Below, one piece after another: positions 10,884 through 50,817 of a DNA stretch of 64,000 bases. This DNA comes from Escherichia phage KKP 3715. The position numbers and the translations under genes are program-made. Under the pieces are notes generated by a model that was given only the letters and a program-made list of their open reading frames with translations, searched no databases and was not told the origin of the DNA. Numbering within the stretch: the stretch's first letter is position 1; the number at the start of each line of letters is the position of its first letter. The stretch is from sequence record OR067834.1. One strand, written 5' to 3'.

Positions 10884-11726
10884 ATGATTATGTCTTGTTC
10901 TGCTGAGGTAGAAGCTAACCGACTCCTAGAAGAGTTAACTAAGGGGGATGACTTTACCCTCCCTGACATTGATATGTCTGGTCCTGAATGGGATATCCCT
11001 GGTGGTGATGAATCCCCAATCTTTGGTGCCATTAGCAAAGTAACTAACGAATCGCTTACTACACGTGAAGTAGGTGGTAGTGGTACGTTTGATGCATTAA
11101 TGGAATCTGCACACAATCACCTTAGAGCTGAGTATAAAGCTAACCGTATTACCGGTGGTGAATACACCAAAGCCTATATTGCCATGATGGAATCATGCAT
11201 GAGTAATGCTGTTCAGTTCTTACTTGGTCGTGACCAAGCATACTGGGCTGCTGCTATGGCACAGATTCAGGCAGTTACTGCACGAGTGCAACTGGCAACG
11301 TCTAAGGCACAGTTTGTACTGGCTAAGATTCAGGCACTGTCTGCTAAGAGTGAATATGCTCTTACTAAGATGAAGATTGCTACTGAGTCTGAAACATACT
11401 GTGCTGCATTGTTTAATGTGAATAAAATTCTTCCTGCACAAGAACGTTTGATACAGGAACAATATGAAGTACAACGTGCACAGACCCAAGAAACTCGTTC
11501 TGATGCATTACCTATTCTTGGTTCTATTGGTAAACAGAAAGAGTTGTATTCCCAACAGATTACTTCTTATCAGCGAGATGCAGAAGTTAAAGCGGCTAAG
11601 CTGTTTACTGATGCATGGATTACACAGAAGACTATTGATGAAGGCTTGAACCCACCTAATGGTTTCACTAACGCAAGTATTGATACCATTCTGACCAAGC
11701 TGAAGTCTAACAACGGGCTGAACTAA
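10884..11726 (+). CDS. virion structural protein (hypothetical)
   Basis: 280 aa; AAGAGGAA RBS; in the block of virion genes upstream of the giant polymerase gene. Confidence 0.45.
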
Positions 11727-11727
11727 T

Positions 11728-14370
11728 ATGGGCTTATTCAGTGGGAAGACCAAAGTATACGTAGCATCCTCTGTCTATAACATGGCAGGGGATATACATA
11801 AGCGCCCAAACTATATGAAGACTGTAGTCATCGGTAAGATTGTTGCTGATACAGGATTCACTATGGCAGACACTATCTCTGATAGTTATCTGAATGGACC
11901 GGGTATTCGTATGCGACTGTTCTCCAGCTGGAGTAAGAACCACTATGATTCAGAAGTTGGTATGGCAGGAGCTTCATTAGGTGTGCTGGCTAAGATTGAC
12001 CCTACTATTATAGAGGGTCAAATTACCCCACCTGCTGGGGAGACTGTCTATGTTCAGGCAGCAGAGATTGGCTTTGCTGACTTTGAGCAATGGTGTGACC
12101 AGTATCTTTATGAGAATGCCCCAAGTCGAATAATGGAGCGATTCGACGTAGACATTGATGAAGATACTAATGAAATTACTATGACCTCCCTTGATGGTGG
12201 TTCTACCATTACATTCACACCTACTAACTTTGAACCAGGTGCTTTGTATCTCTATGCTGATTACACTTTCTATAAGTCCCCAGCTACCAATCCACCGGTA
12301 GTAGGGCCGACTACTGTCTATGATAATGAAGGCGACTTACCATCTACCCTGCTATGGACTACCATCTCAAGTGATACGACAGCTAATACAACCAATCTTA
12401 CTAAGACTATACAGACTCATTCTGTTTACTCTGATGGTAGACCGGATGAAGACAGTACTGTTACTGAACCAAGTGTGGATAACTGGAATTCTTACGTTAA
12501 GGTTTACCGTAGAGGATTTACTGAGAAACCTGATGATGTAACTGTGGTTGTATCTGACAGGGTAATGACTCATACAAAGTTTGGTGAGGTTCAATCTAGC
12601 ACTACTGTAACTACCAATGTTGTTGATTTAGGTGGTGGTGTTACTCGCACAGATACAATCACTACAACTACAGAGACACTGGTTCGTAAGTACTCATCCC
12701 AGACTACCCGTACTGATACTGAGATGACTGCTGTTGGTACACCTAAGATGCTTATCTATAAGCAGAACTCAGGCAACGTTGCACTTGATTCACTGTTTGA
12801 GACTGAAGCTACCGATAACCGATTCTACCCATTCATTCCAATCAGGAATGATAAGCAATGGGTAGAGAATGACCCAATCTACCCCCACTGTAAGAAGGCA
12901 CTCTATAAAGCTACCGGTGGTAAACTCAATAAAGTAGTGACTGAGCTTAAGAAGAATGACGACATAGATGATATCCAATACATCTATGGCACATTCGGTG
13001 TATCTCTTAATACTCCAGAGGATACTGCTAAGGAATACATCTACCGTTTCTTTCAGATGGCTACTGAAGCATTCCCACCTGACCCAACCTACCCTACACT
13101 GGAAGCAGTGATTGCAGGTTATCAGGCAGCAAATGATGCAGTTGATGCATACGTAGAATGGTGGAACAGGCAGGAAGGTCAGGTAGTTGGAACACCTCCT
13201 CCACTACCGGAATACCCTGTCATACCTAAGCGAGAGTTTAGGGTACATAGTAATAAGCAGTACAAGTATGACATGACTATTGGTTGGAACTATGTGTCTG
13301 AAACTACTCATTCTGGTGAAGCATGGTCTGGTGCTAAACAAGGACAACTTCGAGCCAGATATGCAGGGGATATAACTCTTACACGTAAGAACATACGTAC
13401 AGGTGCTAACAAAAAGCTGGAAGTTACCACTACGTTTTATTCTATGCAGGAGTATGAATTGCTTTGGCAGGATGGTAATGACACCTACCGTAAACTTAGG
13501 GTACTGGGTCTGAACCACAACAACAGGGTATATAAAAATAAGTCAGTGAGCATTGATGTTGCCGAAGCAATGGGTGATGCAGAAGAGAGTGGATTCATTA
13601 TTCCACTACACACTAACATCTACCGTTCAATGTCACTGACTCGTAGTACTCAACTGTCTACTGCTTGTTCCTACTTAGTGATGAACTCATATAAGAAGGT
13701 TAAGCAGAAGTGGTATACGACATCTGCCTTTAAGATTGTGGTTGTTGTAGTTGCTGTGGTTGTATCCGTATTCACTATGGGTGCTGGTGGTGCAGGTATT
13801 CTTGGGGCATACGGTGCAGTTGGTGCATCACTTGGTTTTGTTGGATTAGCTGCTGTAATAGTAGGTGCTGTAGCAAACGCTATTGCTGCAATGATTCTGG
13901 TATCTATTATCACTAAAGTATCCACTTCTCTGTTTGGTGATAAGCTAGGCTTTATCATTGCTGCTGTTGCTTCAATGGTAGCTATGAACGTTGGCACTGC
14001 TATGTCTACCGGTACATCCTTATCTACCTTAGCCAGTGAAATGATGAATGCCCAAAACATCATGCAGCTTACCAGTTCAGTAGGTAACGGTATTAGCCAG
14101 TATATTAATGCATCCACGGCTGCTACTATTCAGAAAGCAGAGAATGTAATGCAGCAGTACAATACTGATATGATGGCAATCAATAAGCAGTATGAAGAAA
14201 TGTTTGGTACTGCTGGACAGGGTGTAATTGACCCTATGCAATTTGTGTCAATTGAGTCGATGGATTCTTTCCTCTCACGTACTCTTATGACTGGTTCGGA
14301 TATAGCTGACATGTCTTTAAATATGATTGGAAGCTACTCTGATATGACTCTTAATACAGACCTTGTTTAA
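11728..14370 (+). CDS. large virion protein with C-terminal glycine-rich hydrophobic segments (possible ejection / membrane-insertion protein)
   Basis: 880 aa; the C-terminal ~130 aa contains VVVVVAVVVSVFTMGAGGAGILGAYGAVGASLGFVGLAAVIVGAVANAIAAMILVSI and further hydrophobic stretches. Confidence 0.45.
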   Translation: MGLFSGKTKVYVASSVYNMAGDIHKRPNYMKTVVIGKIVADTGFTMADTISDSYLNGPGIRMRLFSSWSKNHYDSEVGMAGASLGVLAKIDPTIIEGQITPPAGETVYVQAAEIGFADFEQWCDQYLYENAPSRIMERFDVDIDEDTNEITMTSLDGGSTITFTPTNFEPGALYLYADYTFYKSPATNPPVVGPTTVYDNEGDLPSTLLWTTISSDTTANTTNLTKTIQTHSVYSDGRPDEDSTVTEPSVDNWNSYVKVYRRGFTEKPDDVTVVVSDRVMTHTKFGEVQSSTTVTTNVVDLGGGVTRTDTITTTTETLVRKYSSQTTRTDTEMTAVGTPKMLIYKQNSGNVALDSLFETEATDNRFYPFIPIRNDKQWVENDPIYPHCKKALYKATGGKLNKVVTELKKNDDIDDIQYIYGTFGVSLNTPEDTAKEYIYRFFQMATEAFPPDPTYPTLEAVIAGYQAANDAVDAYVEWWNRQEGQVVGTPPPLPEYPVIPKREFRVHSNKQYKYDMTIGWNYVSETTHSGEAWSGAKQGQLRARYAGDITLTRKNIRTGANKKLEVTTTFYSMQEYELLWQDGNDTYRKLRVLGLNHNNRVYKNKSVSIDVAEAMGDAEESGFIIPLHTNIYRSMSLTRSTQLSTACSYLVMNSYKKVKQKWYTTSAFKIVVVVVAVVVSVFTMGAGGAGILGAYGAVGASLGFVGLAAVIVGAVANAIAAMILVSIITKVSTSLFGDKLGFIIAAVASMVAMNVGTAMSTGTSLSTLASEMMNAQNIMQLTSSVGNGISQYINASTAATIQKAENVMQQYNTDMMAINKQYEEMFGTAGQGVIDPMQFVSIESMDSFLSRTLMTGSDIADMSLNMIGSYSDMTLNTDLV

Positions 14371-29860: not shown

Positions 29861-30530
29861 CCCGTTTCTAATACATGGACGGGAGAACTCCACGATCGTT
29901 TGTTAATCAGGACGACTCACTCCTGACTGAGGTTACGCTGTTAGGCGACCATCAGATACGCTTCTTCGTTTGCATTTATGTTATTGGTTCGTTTCTAAAA
30001 AACCGCATAATCGCTACGAAAACTATCAATGAGTACACTCTGTGGATTCATTTTACAGGGACTTCATTTCATTCCCTGACCTCAATCAAATGTACTCATT
30101 GATAGCCCATAATAGGAGGGAGGGGACGAATCCTCCCTTTATACCCTATGTTGCATGTAAGATCTAACAGTTCGGTGTTGTAGACGGATGGGCTTATGCT
30201 TACCGGCATTAAACTCCCGCCCCCTTATTGGGCTGGGTTAATTAATATACTCAACATTGAGCAGTTAGTTTGATAAGGGATCTGAAGCCTTATCCCAAAG
30301 ATACTAACCTTTGGGATATAGCCTAAGATTCAGAAATGGCCCCTATAGGAGAGGCCATTGATTAACCCGAATGTTGCTTTACATTTTCTGAGGTAACCAA
30401 TTCTTAAAATAGTCTGTCTGACGGATGGGGGGCCACCCCTAGCGTCAGTGCCATACGGCAAAGATTAAGTTAAGAAAGGTTATGATAGGAGTTCCTATCT
30501 CAAAGGATTCTGACAGAACCCTTCACGATA

Positions 30531-30701
30531 TTAACTACTCTTTTTCAATGCTTCAACTTCACCATCTTTATACCAAGTATAAGGTATTAAGATTTTGCAG
30601 CCTTCTGAATCAATGTGGAATGCTTTGTTTCCTTCAGCGGGTTCTCCACCCATGAAAGAACTAACCTTTCCATTGAGCCAGTGAATAGTAAATTTGTTCA
30701 T
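30531..30701 (-). CDS. hypothetical small protein
   Basis: Track ORF 30531-30797; an internal ATG at 30701 (MNKFTIHW...) with a GGGG RBS is more plausible. Weak call. Confidence 0.25.
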   Translation of the reverse strand: MNKFTIHWLNGKVSSFMGGEPAEGNKAFHIDSEGCKILIPYTWYKDGEVEALKKSS

Positions 30702-30932
30702 ATTAACCCCGATTGAACCAATGGACTGGGGAGAGTATTCCAATCCACTGGTTCGGTTGTTGTTATTCTGGCGGCTTGTCACCACCGTGTTTACCACTGC
30801 ATTTCCACAGGATAATGACAGTGATGATAAAAGCTATGTATGGAGCCGACACGTCTATAATCCTGACTAGTAGTAGCATCAGGACTATAAACACTACCAC
30901 ACCTAGCAGCAGCTTCTGAGCCACCTACCAGA

Positions 30933-31382
30933 TTAACTACGTTTTAGGCCAGCGAACAGTGAAGGCTTCGCAGCAGGTTTCTCTGCTGGTTCTTCTGCCT
31001 TAACTTCCTCCTGCACAACTTCTTCTTGTGCTTCTGGTTCAGCTACTGCTTCTTCAGGTTCCGGCGTAGAACTCCCGTTCGGTCCACCAGTAGAGGTCTG
31101 GATTTCTTCCTCCTTTACCTCTTCTTCAGCTTCATCCTCAACAACCGGTTCCGGTTCTACCGGACGGTGTTTGGCTTCTTGGGGGTTCTTACGAGGACGG
31201 CGAGTCTTCTTCTCTACCACGGGGGGAGTGTCATCACTATGACCGACCTCTTCATTGATACCAATGGTGGCAGTACCATCTGCATTCACCAGGATATTAA
31301 TGTCCCCGGCAAGGTTAACTTGTTCATTTACATAAGCTTCAATAGCAGCTTCTACTTCAGACTGGTTCAGAACGATTTGCAT
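30933..31382 (-). CDS. acidic low-complexity protein (hypothetical)
   Basis: 149 aa: ~50-aa N-terminal domain, basic patch KKTRRPRKNPQEAKHRP, then an E/P/V/A-rich acidic tail. Confidence 0.45.
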   Translation of the reverse strand: MQIVLNQSEVEAAIEAYVNEQVNLAGDINILVNADGTATIGINEEVGHSDDTPPVVEKKTRRPRKNPQEAKHRPVEPEPVVEDEAEEEVKEEEIQTSTGGPNGSSTPEPEEAVAEPEAQEEVVQEEVKAEEPAEKPAAKPSLFAGLKRS

Positions 31383-31383
31383 A

Positions 31384-31938
31384 TTATGCCTTTATTAATT
31401 TAATGAGATTCTGGAAAGCTGGGAGATTTACCCCAGCGTGGATTGCACCGATTGCATCAGCTAAGTGCTCATTTTTATTCAGAAGTTTACCCTTCTTATC
31501 CGTGAGCCAGTTGGCTTCAGGATAGATGGCATGAGCAGCACGAATCATCGTGTCTTTGGATGCAGTTTTATCACCGACCAGTGCAAGTTTGTTTTCAATT
31601 GGGGATACTTCAAAGATTGGGCAACCCAATGCACGGAATGCACCGATTAGTCCTACGCATACACCATAGGACTTCATACCGTTAGCAGACTGAGAGCCTA
31701 CTGGTACTTCTACAAATACTGCTTTAGCAGACCGTAACCATTCCTCACAACCAAGAAACAAATCATGGGCAGCTTGTATATCTTTGGAGTTGGTTCGAAC
31801 TTGTTTGTTGTGGTCAACTTCAGTTTGAACCAGTTTAAGTTCGACCTGCTCAAAGACACCAGACTCAATGTCCAGCATCCCACGAGCTAATCCCCAATTG
31901 CGGAGGCTAATGTCTGCACCGACAATTGGGATTTTCAT
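31384..31938 (-). CDS. RuvC-like Holliday junction resolvase
   Basis: 184 aa; N-terminal KIPIVGADISLRNWG (acidic residue in a beta-strand) and C-terminal HLADAIGAIHAG resemble the RuvC/YqgF catalytic strands; start overlaps the upstream stop (TAATG). Confidence 0.5.
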   Translation of the reverse strand: MKIPIVGADISLRNWGLARGMLDIESGVFEQVELKLVQTEVDHNKQVRTNSKDIQAAHDLFLGCEEWLRSAKAVFVEVPVGSQSANGMKSYGVCVGLIGAFRALGCPIFEVSPIENKLALVGDKTASKDTMIRAAHAIYPEANWLTDKKGKLLNKNEHLADAIGAIHAGVNLPAFQNLIKLIKA

Positions 31939-49345: not shown

Positions 49346-49788
49346 TAGAATGACCTTAGATAGTTGGTAATACCACTACGGTTTTCTGTAATCCTCTTGG
49401 CCTGAACATATACCAGCTTAAACTCACTACGGGGTAGTTCCTGTAATACTGCTATACCTTCAGTAAGGGCCACAGAACACGCTACAGCGGTTTCTTTTTT
49501 AAAGGAGTACAAGTCTTCATACATGAGGGCTTCATACTCTTTACGGAGCATACAGAGAGCATCTCTTGCCTTATCACTTACTTCTTGTGAACCAGCAGAC
49601 ATAGCTAAGCTGTATATGATAAAGACTTGTTCGAAAACAAAGTCCAGTAATCTATCAGGGTTGCTAGTCCCCATGAACAATTTTGTTATATAGGAACGAG
49701 CTTTACGGTTGAGTTCGTACTCATCCTCTATGCCTTTATTATAAAGAACAGGATTTCGCTCCCTTTTTCTTAGGAATGGAATACGCAT
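49345..49788 (-). CDS. hypothetical protein
   Basis: 147 aa ORF, translationally coupled to neighbours. Confidence 0.4.
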   Translation of the reverse strand: MRIPFLRKRERNPVLYNKGIEDEYELNRKARSYITKLFMGTSNPDRLLDFVFEQVFIIYSLAMSAGSQEVSDKARDALCMLRKEYEALMYEDLYSFKKETAVACSVALTEGIAVLQELPRSEFKLVYVQAKRITENRSGITNYLRSF

Positions 49789-50276
49789 TAGTATTTACTA
49801 CCTCTTCTATACCAAGGGTAATGGTGGGTAGTGCTCTTGCCTTTGAACACATCCTTGGTATAAGGATTCTTTTGTATTTGAGCCAGGTAAAGATGCATGT
49901 CGTCATAGCAAGGACTAAGCCAGAACTTATCTATGATACGATCTACCTTAGCTTTCAGATGAGGTTCAGGAGGGATGTATGGGAAAACATTAAATGATCT
50001 ACTAGTCCATCCTTTCTGAATAGCAGCTTGCATTGCTGCGTAAACATCGGGACCAATTCCATTTTCTTCTACTTGGTCATGTATAGTTTTACCTAAAGTA
50101 AGCATTGCAGTTTGTTCCAGTTTACTTAAGTCCAGTCCATATAAGATAGACTTACCATTTTGTCTGTTTGACATAAGAGTACCTGTAATTAAAAAAGCCC
50201 ACTGGTTAGGTGGGCTTGGATTAGGAGATGGATAAGCAATGAGCTGGAAGTAACTTCCACAAGCATCACTATACAA
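49788..50276 (-). CDS. hypothetical protein
   Basis: 162 aa ORF. Confidence 0.4.
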   Translation of the reverse strand: MYSDACGSYFQLIAYPSPNPSPPNQWAFLITGTLMSNRQNGKSILYGLDLSKLEQTAMLTLGKTIHDQVEENGIGPDVYAAMQAAIQKGWTSRSFNVFPYIPPEPHLKAKVDRIIDKFWLSPCYDDMHLYLAQIQKNPYTKDVFKGKSTTHHYPWYRRGSKY

Positions 50277-50291
50277 TGATGCTTAGGTTAG

Positions 50292-50534
50292 TTACTCTGC
50301 TTTACTGCCACCATTGGTTTGAACAACAGTTACATTTGTAACTTGGTTCTGACCTTTGTTGGACAGTGACCAAATCAGTGCTACTACCCAGAAGACTAAA
50401 GACCAGCCTAATACGATATTGAGTACACCAATGCCCCACTTAGAGGCATGGCCTCGTGCAAAAGCAATAATGGTAGGGATAAGGTATACAGCTAGTGCAA
50501 ATAACAGAACAAGGATTGCTGCTAAAGATTCCAT
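50292..50534 (-). CDS. superinfection-immunity-like small membrane protein
   Basis: Start moved to the ATG at 50534 (AGGAAC RBS). YLIPTIIAFARGH...NIVLGWSLVFWVVALIWSL matches the pattern of the Imm-type superinfection immunity family as recalled (two TMDs with a conserved GW). Confidence 0.45.
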   Translation of the reverse strand: MESLAAILVLLFALAVYLIPTIIAFARGHASKWGIGVLNIVLGWSLVFWVVALIWSLSNKGQNQVTNVTVVQTNGGSKAE

Positions 50535-50607
50535 GATGGTTCCTATGTGGGGTTGAGTTAGTTTCTTCACAAATAGCCCAACTATGCTGGGCTATTTAGG
50601 CAGCTAC

Positions 50608-50817
50608 TTACTCAGCATCTTTGCTTGCAGGAGCAAGAGCTTTCTTCAGGTAATTACGTACCGAACGATAGGTTTCTTTGGTGTCCATAGCGCTATCATT
50701 TACAAATACGATACGTGCACAGTCAGACAGCGGAATCTGTTCTACTGCAATTACATTTGCAGCATTAATGGTTAAGCGTACATCTGAGGTTGCATGAGTT
50801 ACTTGAAATACTGACAT
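50608..50817 (-). CDS. hypothetical protein
   Basis: 69 aa ORF. Confidence 0.3.
   Translation of the reverse strand: MSVFQVTHATSDVRLTINAANVIAVEQIPLSDCARIVFVNDSAMDTKETYRSVRNYLKKALAPASKDAE

What the first reader, a model, noticed from the sequence alone, without database searches (positions are those of the whole stretch)
50292..50534. Superinfection-immunity-like small membrane protein
The two-TMD product (YLIPTIIAFARGH...NIVLGWSLVFWVVALIWSL) matches the pattern recalled for Imm-type superinfection immunity proteins, better known from T4-like phages, suggesting exclusion of secondary infection.
Basis: partly seen in the sequence, partly recalled or inferred. Interest (0 to 1): 0.4.

Follow-up and report, generated by a model that had tools for sequence, protein, structure and literature searches.

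The report
Imm-family membrane protein of N4-like phage
This is a real gene for an 80-residue, two-helix membrane protein of an N4-like E. coli phage that belongs to the phage T4 Imm ("superinfection immunity") family; close relatives already carry that annotation, so the finding is correct but ordinary, and the exclusion function is still untested.

Summary
Pfam PF14373 Imm_superinfect scores 61.9 bits against a cut-off of 27.9 (E 5e-17) and the whole profile is covered. PHROG 1039 "immunity to superinfection" gives E 3e-30. T4 Imm aligns end to end at 30% identity (pairwise E 8e-11).

The window is a Gamaleyavirus, an N4-like podovirus of the Schitoviridae. The PhAPEC7 orthologue is 98.8% identical and is already named "putative superinfection immunity protein". 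About 54 sequenced relatives carry the gene, and it is under purifying selection (dN/dS 0.02-0.23). Relative to N4, it is a roughly 330-nt cassette inserted between the gp27-like and gp28-like genes.

The function is inferred, not shown. A 2026 preprint reports that T4 Imm binds the tape-measure protein gp29. This phage has no detectable gp29 homologue, so its target must be something else, or a foreign phage. The family is also very large (about 13,000 clusters) and includes bacterial genes in housekeeping neighbourhoods. The family name therefore predicts function less firmly than it suggests.

Verdict: already known, low interest.

The parts
50292..50534 (-). Coding sequence for an 80-aa Imm_superinfect (T4 Imm family) protein with two hydrophobic helices. 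The family core is residues 16-57, and the polar tail 61-80 is variable.
   Evidence: ORF; Pfam PF14373 at 61.9 bits, E 5.3e-17; PHROG 1039, E 3e-30; 30% identity to T4 Imm over the full length; hydropathy; AF2 helices 2-26 and 32-60; dN/dS 0.02-0.23.
50541..50544 (-). Shine-Dalgarno AGGA, 6 nt upstream of the ATG at 50534.
   Evidence: Read directly from the sequence. It is identical in all nine Gamaleyavirus orthologous loci aligned.
50571..50597 (-). Hairpin AAAUAGCCCAGC-AUA-GUUGGGCUAUUU (12-13 bp stem, 3-nt loop) between the stop of the gp27-like gene (50608) and the imm start. It belongs to the inserted cassette. Its role (terminator, insulator or RNA-stability element) is not established.
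   Evidence: RNA fold z-score -3.85 for 50530-50620. Conserved in Gamaleyavirus relatives. It has no counterpart at this position in the N4 spacer.
50260..50285 (-). Hairpin just after the stop codon (UAAGCAUCAUU-GUAU-AGUGAUGCUUG). An outer stem extends it to 50250-50295.
   Evidence: RNA fold of 50175-50295, z-score -4.83. Locus L021 carries different bases on both arms that still pair. The hairpin aligns with the hairpin after N4 gp27.
50187..50217 (-). Intrinsic terminator AAGCCCAC-CUAACCA-GUGGGCUU followed by UUUUUAAUU. It ends the imm transcript 13 nt before the gp28-like gene starts at 50174.
   Evidence: Terminator scan and fold. The same element is annotated as a terminator in PhAPEC7. 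It is homologous to the terminator in the N4 gp27-gp28 spacer.
50608..50817 (-). Upstream neighbour (context): a 69-aa homologue of N4 gp27. It marks the 5' edge of the insertion.
   Evidence: 33% identity to N4 gp27, pairwise E 4e-7; PHROG 7594.
49788..50174 (-). Downstream neighbour (context): a 128-aa homologue of N4 gp28. It marks the 3' edge of the insertion.
   Evidence: tblastn to N4 gp28, E 1.6e-9. PHROG 12812 matches the full length from the ATG at 50174.

Best explanation
The gene encodes a genuine member of the T4 Imm family. Shown: the protein is small, has two hydrophobic helices joined by a short basic loop (R27-G-H-A-S-K32), and has a polar, variable C-terminal tail. Inferred from the positive-inside rule and from what is reported for T4 Imm: it sits in the inner membrane with its N-terminus, and probably its tail, in the periplasm. 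Shown by synteny with N4, with timing inferred: the gene lies in the replication and nucleotide-metabolism block that corresponds to the middle genes of N4, as a self-contained cassette with its own ribosome-binding site, flanking hairpins and a terminator. It should therefore be made within minutes of infection. Most likely mechanism, inferred by homology only: once in the membrane of the infected cell, it stops the genome of a later-arriving phage from crossing the inner membrane. It would do this by binding the membrane-inserting part of that phage's DNA-delivery apparatus, as T4 Imm is reported to bind the helical-bundle domain of tape-measure protein gp29. This podovirus has no gp29-like protein. 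For exclusion of its own kind, the partner would have to be the N4-type ejectosome at the inner membrane, namely the hydrophobic C-terminus of the gp51 homologue and/or the N-terminal domain of the virion RNA polymerase gp50. Which phages are excluded is unknown. The confidence given (0.6) is for the exclusion function; family membership alone I put at about 0.97.
For: Family membership: Pfam PF14373 at 61.9 bits against a cut-off of 27.9, full profile; PHROG 1039 'immunity to superinfection', E 3e-30; end-to-end alignment with T4 Imm, 30% identity, E 8e-11. The two T4 residues whose mutation weakens exclusion, R33 and W50 (preprint 10.64898/2026.03.06.709160), correspond to R27 (invariant) and W44 (nearly invariant). 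Architecture: two hydrophobic peaks, with the basic residues in the loop; a helix-loop-helix model. Real and selected: present in about 54 of about 55 Gamaleyavirus records and 83 protein clusters, mostly on contigs of about 72 kb; dN/dS 0.02-0.23; base composition like its neighbours. Cassette structure and insertion relative to N4. [quoted passage not shown]
Against: No exclusion phenotype has been reported for any Gamaleyavirus Imm homologue in the literature held. The only mechanism described for the family, binding to the T4 tape-measure protein, cannot operate against this phage's own kind. No gp29 homologue is detectable in the window or in the complete PhAPEC7 genome; the best phmmer E is 0.37, on a helicase. 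The family is huge: 13,101 cluster representatives at E<=1e-3. It includes bacterial genes in plainly non-phage neighbourhoods, after dnaN-gyrB in Helicobacter cholecystus and beside a LysR-type regulator gene, a GPR1/FUN34/YaaH-family gene and an Hsp70 (DnaK-type) gene in an Orbaceae chromosome. Those bacterial proteins keep the same PTIIAFxRGH and GW..W..W motifs. Conservation of R27 and W44 is therefore family-wide and says nothing specific about exclusion. The window protein is nearer in sequence to some of those bacterial proteins (42-61% identity) than to T4 Imm (30%). N4 itself manages without the gene.
Confidence: 0.6

Rival explanations
1. Cross-family exclusion. The protein keeps the T4-type mechanism and binds tape-measure proteins of T-even or other myoviruses. 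A cell infected by the podovirus would then be closed to these unrelated competitors rather than to the podovirus itself.
For: The only partner reported for an Imm protein is a tape-measure protein. The phage has none of its own. The residues implicated in T4 are conserved. All other close phage homologues found are in myoviruses, which do have tape-measure proteins. T-even phages share the E. coli host.
Against: Identity to T4 Imm is only 30%. The conserved residues are family-wide, including in bacterial members. There are no binding or plating data.
Confidence: 0.15
2. The protein is not an exclusion factor. It would be a general small membrane protein that protects or conditions the inner membrane, for example resistance to damage from secondary adsorption or support of lysis inhibition. 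N4-type phages show lysis inhibition, and T4 imm mutants are partly defective in it.
For: Family members occur in housekeeping contexts in bacteria, and the family is very large. The Abedon review (PMC6832632) lists resistance to secondary traumatization and to premature collapse of lysis inhibition among T4 Imm roles. N4 shows lysis inhibition, proposed to respond to superinfection (preprint 10.1101/2025.11.12.688109). The phage also carries rIIA and rIIB homologues.
Against: N4, the phage in which this lysis inhibition was described, lacks the gene. The lysis cassette lies elsewhere in the genome. No holin or antiholin family matches.
Confidence: 0.2
3. Chance ORF or mis-called gene: a hydrophobic reading frame with no product.
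For: Short ORFs of this size are common in the window.
Against: Pfam E 5e-17, a Shine-Dalgarno at the right distance, conservation in all relatives and dN/dS well below 1.
Confidence: 0.01

Closest known systems
Phage T4 Imm (NP_049660, 83 aa), founder of Pfam PF14373 Imm_superinfect
   Same: Same length class and the same order of parts: ME-start, hydrophobic helix with a conserved Y..P, an RG basic loop, a second hydrophobic helix with GW..W..W, and a polar tail. It aligns end to end at 30% identity. Both proteins match the whole Pfam profile. R33/R27 and W50/W44 are conserved. Both genes sit among nucleotide-metabolism and replication genes.
   Different: The host phage is a short-tailed N4-like podovirus without a gp29-type tape-measure protein, so the T4 partner is missing. 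Expression is probably middle rather than immediate-early (inferred from position). The function is untested here.
Annotated Gamaleyavirus orthologues, e.g. PhAPEC7 AHV82652.1 / YP_009056157.1 'putative superinfection immunity protein' and Bp4, St11Ph5 and Moo19 'membrane immunity protein'
   Same: 98.8% identity to the PhAPEC7 protein, with the same position between the gp27-like and gp28-like genes and the same downstream terminator.
   Different: Essentially nothing. The window protein carries the 80-aa tail allele (...NQVTNVTVVQTNGGSKAE). Many relatives carry an 86-aa allele (...SQTTIVNVGSGNQYNVSQTSQSDK).
[quoted passage not shown]
   Same: Small inner-membrane proteins proposed to block a membrane-inserting, pore-forming protein of the incoming agent. 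This is how the window protein is thought to work.
   Different: No sequence relationship was tested or claimed. These are analogues in mechanism, not family members.
Bacterial chromosomal PF14373 proteins (e.g. Helicobacter cholecystus tandem pair after gyrB; Orbaceae gene beside genes for a LysR-type regulator, a YaaH-family protein and an Hsp70)
   Same: The same core motifs, PTIIAFxRGH and GW..W..W, and similar size (63-69 aa). Identity to the window protein is 42-61%.
   Different: They are encoded among housekeeping genes, not in phages. Their function is unknown, and they show that the family name over-states what membership implies.

Membership tests
Pfam PF14373 Imm_superinfect / T4 Imm family | Match to the family profile above the curated gathering score, over the whole domain | tested here: met
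   61.9 bits against 27.9, E 5.3e-17, profile 1-42 of 42 = residues 16-57. T4 Imm scores 58.2 bits on the same model.
Pfam PF14373 Imm_superinfect / T4 Imm family | Direct similarity to the experimentally studied founder (T4 Imm) over the full length, not only the 42-residue core | tested here: met
   BLASTP gives 25 identities over 82 aligned columns (30%), covering residues 1-74 of 80 and 1-82 of 83, pairwise E 8e-11.
Pfam PF14373 Imm_superinfect / T4 Imm family | Small protein (about 80 aa) with two long hydrophobic segments separated by a short basic loop | tested here: met
   Kyte-Doolittle maxima of 2.78 and 2.26. R27, H29 and K32 lie in the loop. AF2 gives helices 2-26 and 32-60.
Pfam PF14373 Imm_superinfect / T4 Imm family | Residues needed for exclusion by T4 Imm (R33, W50) are present | tested here: met
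   R27 is invariant and W44 is present in at least 90% of sequences in the alignment with T4 Imm; mutant data are from the preprint. These residues are also conserved in bacterial members, so the feature does not discriminate function.
Pfam PF14373 Imm_superinfect / T4 Imm family | Location in the inner membrane with the N-terminus in the periplasm | not testable with these tools
   Only a prediction is possible. The charge distribution fits an N-out orientation with a cytoplasmic loop. The T4 topology is cited second-hand from the preprint, because the 1993 paper is not held.
Pfam PF14373 Imm_superinfect / T4 Imm family | Blocks genome entry of a superinfecting phage (exclusion phenotype) | not testable with these tools
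   No experimental report for Gamaleyavirus was found.
T4-type mechanism (Imm binds tape-measure protein gp29) | A gp29-like tape-measure protein exists in the phage that carries the gene, so that self-exclusion can use the same partner | tested here: not met
   phmmer and BLASTP of T4 gp29, whole and residues 205-518, against all ORFs of the window and the complete PhAPEC7 genome give nothing better than E 0.37 (phmmer) or 0.015 (BLASTP), both on the RecD-like helicase. The phage is a podovirus. This is a sequence-level test only.
PHROG 1039 'immunity to superinfection' | Match to the PHROG profile | tested here: met
   E 3.2e-30, 106 bits, residues 1-74.
Holins (class II, two transmembrane helices) | Match to a holin family and a position in the lysis cassette | tested here: not met
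   No holin family appears among Pfam hits at E<=1. In PhAPEC7 the holin, endolysin and spanin genes lie about 47 kb away.
Known anti-phage defence systems (PADLOC-DB) | Match to any defence-system protein model | tested here: not met
   No family at E<=0.1.

The most novel reading that the evidence does not exclude
An Imm-family protein fixed as a core gene in a tape-measure-less podovirus genus must act on something other than its own tape measure. Two readings remain open. It may block the N4-type ejectosome at the inner membrane (gp51 C-terminus and/or gp50 N-terminal domain), which would be a new class of target for this family. Or it may serve as a weapon against unrelated T-even myoviruses competing for the same cell. 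Either reading would show that the Imm fold is a general plug for phage inner-membrane channels rather than a T4-specific device.
Probability: 0.45. Interest if true: 0.5.

Novelty: already known. Interest (0 to 1): 0.18.

Why it matters
As a gene call it adds nothing. The orthologue has been annotated this way since the first Gamaleyavirus genomes, and RefSeq names it "immunity to superinfection". There are two small points of value. First, a 2026 preprint ties T4 Imm to the tape-measure protein, and this homologue lives in a phage without one. That makes it a convenient test of whether the family recognises a general feature of phage inner-membrane channels. Second, Gamaleyaviruses are candidates for therapy against pathogenic E. 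coli. An active exclusion gene could affect how they behave in cocktails with T4-like phages.

Tried and rejected
- **Alternative GTG start at 50570 (92 aa):** rejected. It lies in the hairpin, has no Shine-Dalgarno, and no homologue uses it.
- **Structure route:** the AF2 model is only a helical hairpin (pLDDT 69). Foldseek against viral models gave no hit with E<=0.001; an Aeromonas phage "superinfection immunity protein" ranked third at E 1.1, which is not significant. No solved structure matches by sequence; the best hits were PsaM at E 0.43, which is noise. The T4 Imm-gp29 complex of the preprint is not in the PDB copy.
- **Known defence systems:** PADLOC gave no match.
- **NCBIfam:** nothing meaningful.
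- **Prophage or host origin:** no DNA match in 5,426 complete E. coli genomes. GC and GC3 match the neighbouring genes. There is therefore no sign of recent acquisition.
- **T4 gp29-like target in the phage:** none found. RefSeq labels the N4 gp57 homologue of PhAPEC7 "tail length tape measure protein", but it shows no similarity to gp29.
- **Hydrophobic virion proteins as candidate partners:** a crude hydropathy scan found a strongly hydrophobic stretch only in the gp53 homologue. The N4 literature describes gp53 as the tail plug, so I did not build on this.
- **Original T4 Imm papers:** Lu & Henning 1989 and Lu et al. 1993 are not held. Topology and host range of T4 Imm are therefore cited second-hand.
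- **Names for the nearest non-Gamaleyavirus homologues:** almost all are unnamed metagenome proteins.

Full report
**1. What is in the sequence**

On the minus strand an ORF runs from ATG 50534-50532 to TAA 50294-50292 and encodes 80 residues. An AGGA Shine-Dalgarno lies 6 nt upstream of the ATG.

The ORF lister also offers a GTG start at 50570 (92 aa). That start lies inside a hairpin and has no ribosome-binding site. All 83 close homologues are 72-86 aa and begin with ME.

A 19-residue Kyte-Doolittle scan gives two hydrophobic blocks with maxima of 2.78 and 2.26. Between them is a short loop carrying R27, H29 and K32. AlphaFold2 on a 25-sequence alignment gives helices 2-26 and 32-60 and a disordered tail, with mean pLDDT 69. 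The "two-TMD small membrane protein" description is correct.

**2. Is it more than chance?**

Yes, on three counts.
- Pfam PF14373 Imm_superinfect matches with E 5.3e-17 and 61.9 bits (gathering score 27.9), covering the full 42-position profile.
- PHROG 1039 "immunity to superinfection" matches with E 3.2e-30.
- Against nine orthologous genes, synonymous changes far outnumber non-synonymous ones in codons 1-61, giving dN/dS of 0.02-0.23.

**3. Which genome this is, and prior annotation**

The window is a Gamaleyavirus (Schitoviridae, Enquatrovirinae), a G7C-like relative of coliphage N4. It is about 94% identical over 24 kb to phages PhAPEC5 and PhAPEC7.

The PhAPEC7 orthologue (AHV82652.1) is 98.8% identical. 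GenBank already names it "putative superinfection immunity protein" and RefSeq names it "immunity to superinfection". Other records use "membrane immunity protein".

About 54 phage records carry a copy at 80% identity or more, out of about 55 that match the surrounding 3 kb. It is therefore a core gene of the genus. The core through residue 61 is nearly invariant. The tail comes in an 80-aa allele and an 86-aa allele.

**4. Relation to T4 Imm**

I fetched T4 imm and compared it directly.
- The two proteins align end to end, with 25 identities over 82 aligned columns and a pairwise E of 8e-11.
- T4 Imm scores 58.2 bits on the same Pfam model.
- In a 20-sequence alignment that includes T4 Imm, nine core positions are invariant: Y17, P20, I23, R27, G28, S31, I35, W49 and W55.

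A 2026 preprint (10.64898/2026.03.06.709160) reports three things about T4 Imm. It co-purifies with a fragment of tape-measure protein gp29. A cryo-EM map places an Imm loop against the hydrophobic patch of the gp29 helical-bundle domain. The mutations R33A and W50A weaken exclusion. These positions correspond to R27 and W44 in the window protein.

Family membership is therefore as well established as sequence analysis can make it.

**5. Local anatomy and comparison with N4**

The gene lies in the block co-directional with the AAA ATPase, VWA-domain protein, dCTP deaminase, ThyX, rIIA/rIIB and replication genes. This block corresponds to the middle genes of N4; the expression timing is my inference from established N4 biology.

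The upstream neighbour (50608-50817) is a homologue of N4 gp27 (33% identity, E 4e-7). The downstream neighbour (49788-50174, ATG at 50174) is a homologue of N4 gp28. In N4 these two genes are separated by only 113 nt.

Aligning the spacers shows that the entire N4 spacer corresponds to the stretch downstream of imm in the window. The shared elements are a hairpin with a UAUAG-type loop, a short GGAA..UUCC hairpin, the CATTGCTTA motif and the intrinsic terminator GCCCAC...GTGGGCTTTTTTAATTA.

So imm, its ribosome-binding site and an extra hairpin (50571-50597) form an insertion of about 330 nt directly after the gp27-like stop codon. Equally, it could be a deletion in the N4 lineage. tblastn finds no imm in the N4 gp20-gp34 region, and the PhAPEC7 authors found no N4 counterpart.

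Both hairpins fold far better than shuffled controls, with z-scores of -3.85 and -4.83. The terminator is detected independently. GC and GC3 match the neighbours, and no E. coli genome carries related DNA. There is thus no sign of recent acquisition.

**6. How it most likely works**

*Shown:* it is a T4 Imm-family protein, hydrophobic, conserved, and a self-contained cassette.

*Inferred:* it inserts in the inner membrane with the basic loop inside. Like T4 Imm, it prevents the DNA of a later phage from crossing that membrane.

*The step that cannot be transferred is the partner.* phmmer and BLASTP of T4 gp29, whole and residues 205-518, against every ORF of the window and the complete PhAPEC7 genome find nothing. 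The best E is 0.37, on a helicase. This is expected for a podovirus.

For N4, a 2026 study (PMC13434306) describes the ejectosome as follows:
- gp52 forms the outer-membrane channel.
- gp51 forms the periplasmic tunnel.
- The inner-membrane part is probably formed by the hydrophobic gp51 C-terminus together with the gp50 (virion RNA polymerase) N-terminal domain.

All three genes are conserved in Gamaleyavirus. If the protein excludes its own kind, that complex is the logical target. If it keeps the T4-type partner, it would act against T-even competitors instead. I cannot distinguish these two possibilities computationally.

**7. Reasons for caution about the function**

- An exhaustive profile search finds 13,101 cluster representatives at E<=1e-3 and 1,236 at E<=1e-10. 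Many are longer proteins that carry the domain at one end.
- A scan of species-representative bacterial genomes found relatives with 42-61% identity in Pseudomonadota, Campylobacterota, Verrucomicrobiota and other phyla.
- In the two loci I examined the neighbours are housekeeping genes. In Helicobacter cholecystus there are two tandem copies right after dnaN-gyrB and before plsY. In an Orbaceae chromosome the gene lies between a LysR-type regulator gene and a GPR1/FUN34/YaaH-family gene, near an Hsp70 (DnaK-type) gene and genes for ribose-5-phosphate isomerase A and a 2-hydroxyacid dehydrogenase.
- These bacterial proteins keep PTIIAFxRGH and GW..W..W. The residues that matter in T4 are therefore family-wide and probably structural.
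- The window protein is closer in sequence to some of these proteins, and to AP22-like Acinetobacter myovirus proteins (63% over the core), than to T4 Imm.
- T4 Imm has also been linked to resistance to secondary-adsorption damage and to maintenance of lysis inhibition (PMC6832632). N4-type phages show lysis inhibition that is proposed to respond to superinfection. However, N4 itself lacks this gene.
- I found no experimental test of any Gamaleyavirus Imm homologue.

**8. Verdict**

The finding is already known as an annotation and is of low interest in itself.

The only mildly interesting angle is the mismatch between the newly reported T4 mechanism (tape-measure binding) and a host phage that has no tape measure. 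That makes this gene a cheap experimental test of how general the Imm mechanism is.

Noticed in passing
window 50571-50597 (- strand); loci L019 and L023, about 60-35 nt upstream of their imm start: The central part of the upstream hairpin differs between relatives in a way that looks like a flip of the palindrome. The window has CCCAGC-ATA-GTTGGG, while L023 has CCCAAC-TAT-GCTGGG, which is its exact reverse complement. The G-U wobble therefore moves to the other strand. This could be an inversion or a set of compensatory changes. The function of the hairpin is unknown.
   Followed up: partly
window 11722-14367 (+), homologue of N4 gp53 (PHROG 2220, unknown function): This 882-aa virion protein has a Gly/Ala/Val-rich stretch of about 100 residues (about 663-762) that is strongly hydrophobic, with a Kyte-Doolittle maximum of 2.59. 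It was the only virion-module protein to show several candidate membrane helices in a crude scan. Pfam finds nothing. The N4 literature describes gp53 as the tail plug.
   Followed up: partly
PhAPEC7 RefSeq record NC_024790, 55020-56240 (L006:8021-9241), homologue of N4 gp57: This gene is annotated 'tail length tape measure protein' in a short-tailed podovirus, between the major head protein and portal genes. It shows no similarity to T4 gp29 and is probably a mis-transferred name.
   Followed up: partly
window 49788-50276 (- strand): The mechanical ORF list gives a 162-aa TTG-start ORF that would run through the intrinsic terminator at 50195-50217. The real gene starts at ATG 50174 (128 aa), which matches PHROG 12812 over its full length and N4 gp28.
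   Followed up: yes
window 50608-50817 (- strand): The PhAPEC7 GenBank note says the orthologue of this gene has no similarity to any N4 protein. It is in fact a homologue of N4 gp27, with 33% identity, pairwise E 4e-7, and the same position after the dCTP deaminase gene.
   Followed up: yes
L009:4974-5376 (Helicobacter cholecystus) and L016:4950-5156 (Orbaceae chromosome): Bacterial Imm_superinfect genes sit in housekeeping neighbourhoods. There are two tandem copies directly after gyrB in H. cholecystus, and a single copy between a LysR-type regulator gene and a GPR1/FUN34/YaaH-family gene, near an Hsp70 (DnaK-type) gene, in Orbaceae. What this domain does in bacteria appears to be unknown.
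   Followed up: partly
L026 (IMG/VR contig of 52 kb), 1201-1455: A 58%-identical Imm homologue lies in a different viral contig whose flanks show no similarity to the gp26, gp27, gp28 or gp29 homologues of the window. The gene has evidently moved between phage backbones.
   Followed up: no
PhAPEC7 L004:22837-26122 and 30078-31626 (relatives of window genes): In PhAPEC7 the DNA polymerase gene and the gp44-like ATPase gene are annotated as split by introns that carry an HNH endonuclease and a restriction-endonuclease-like ORF. I did not check whether the window has the same interruptions.
   Followed up: no
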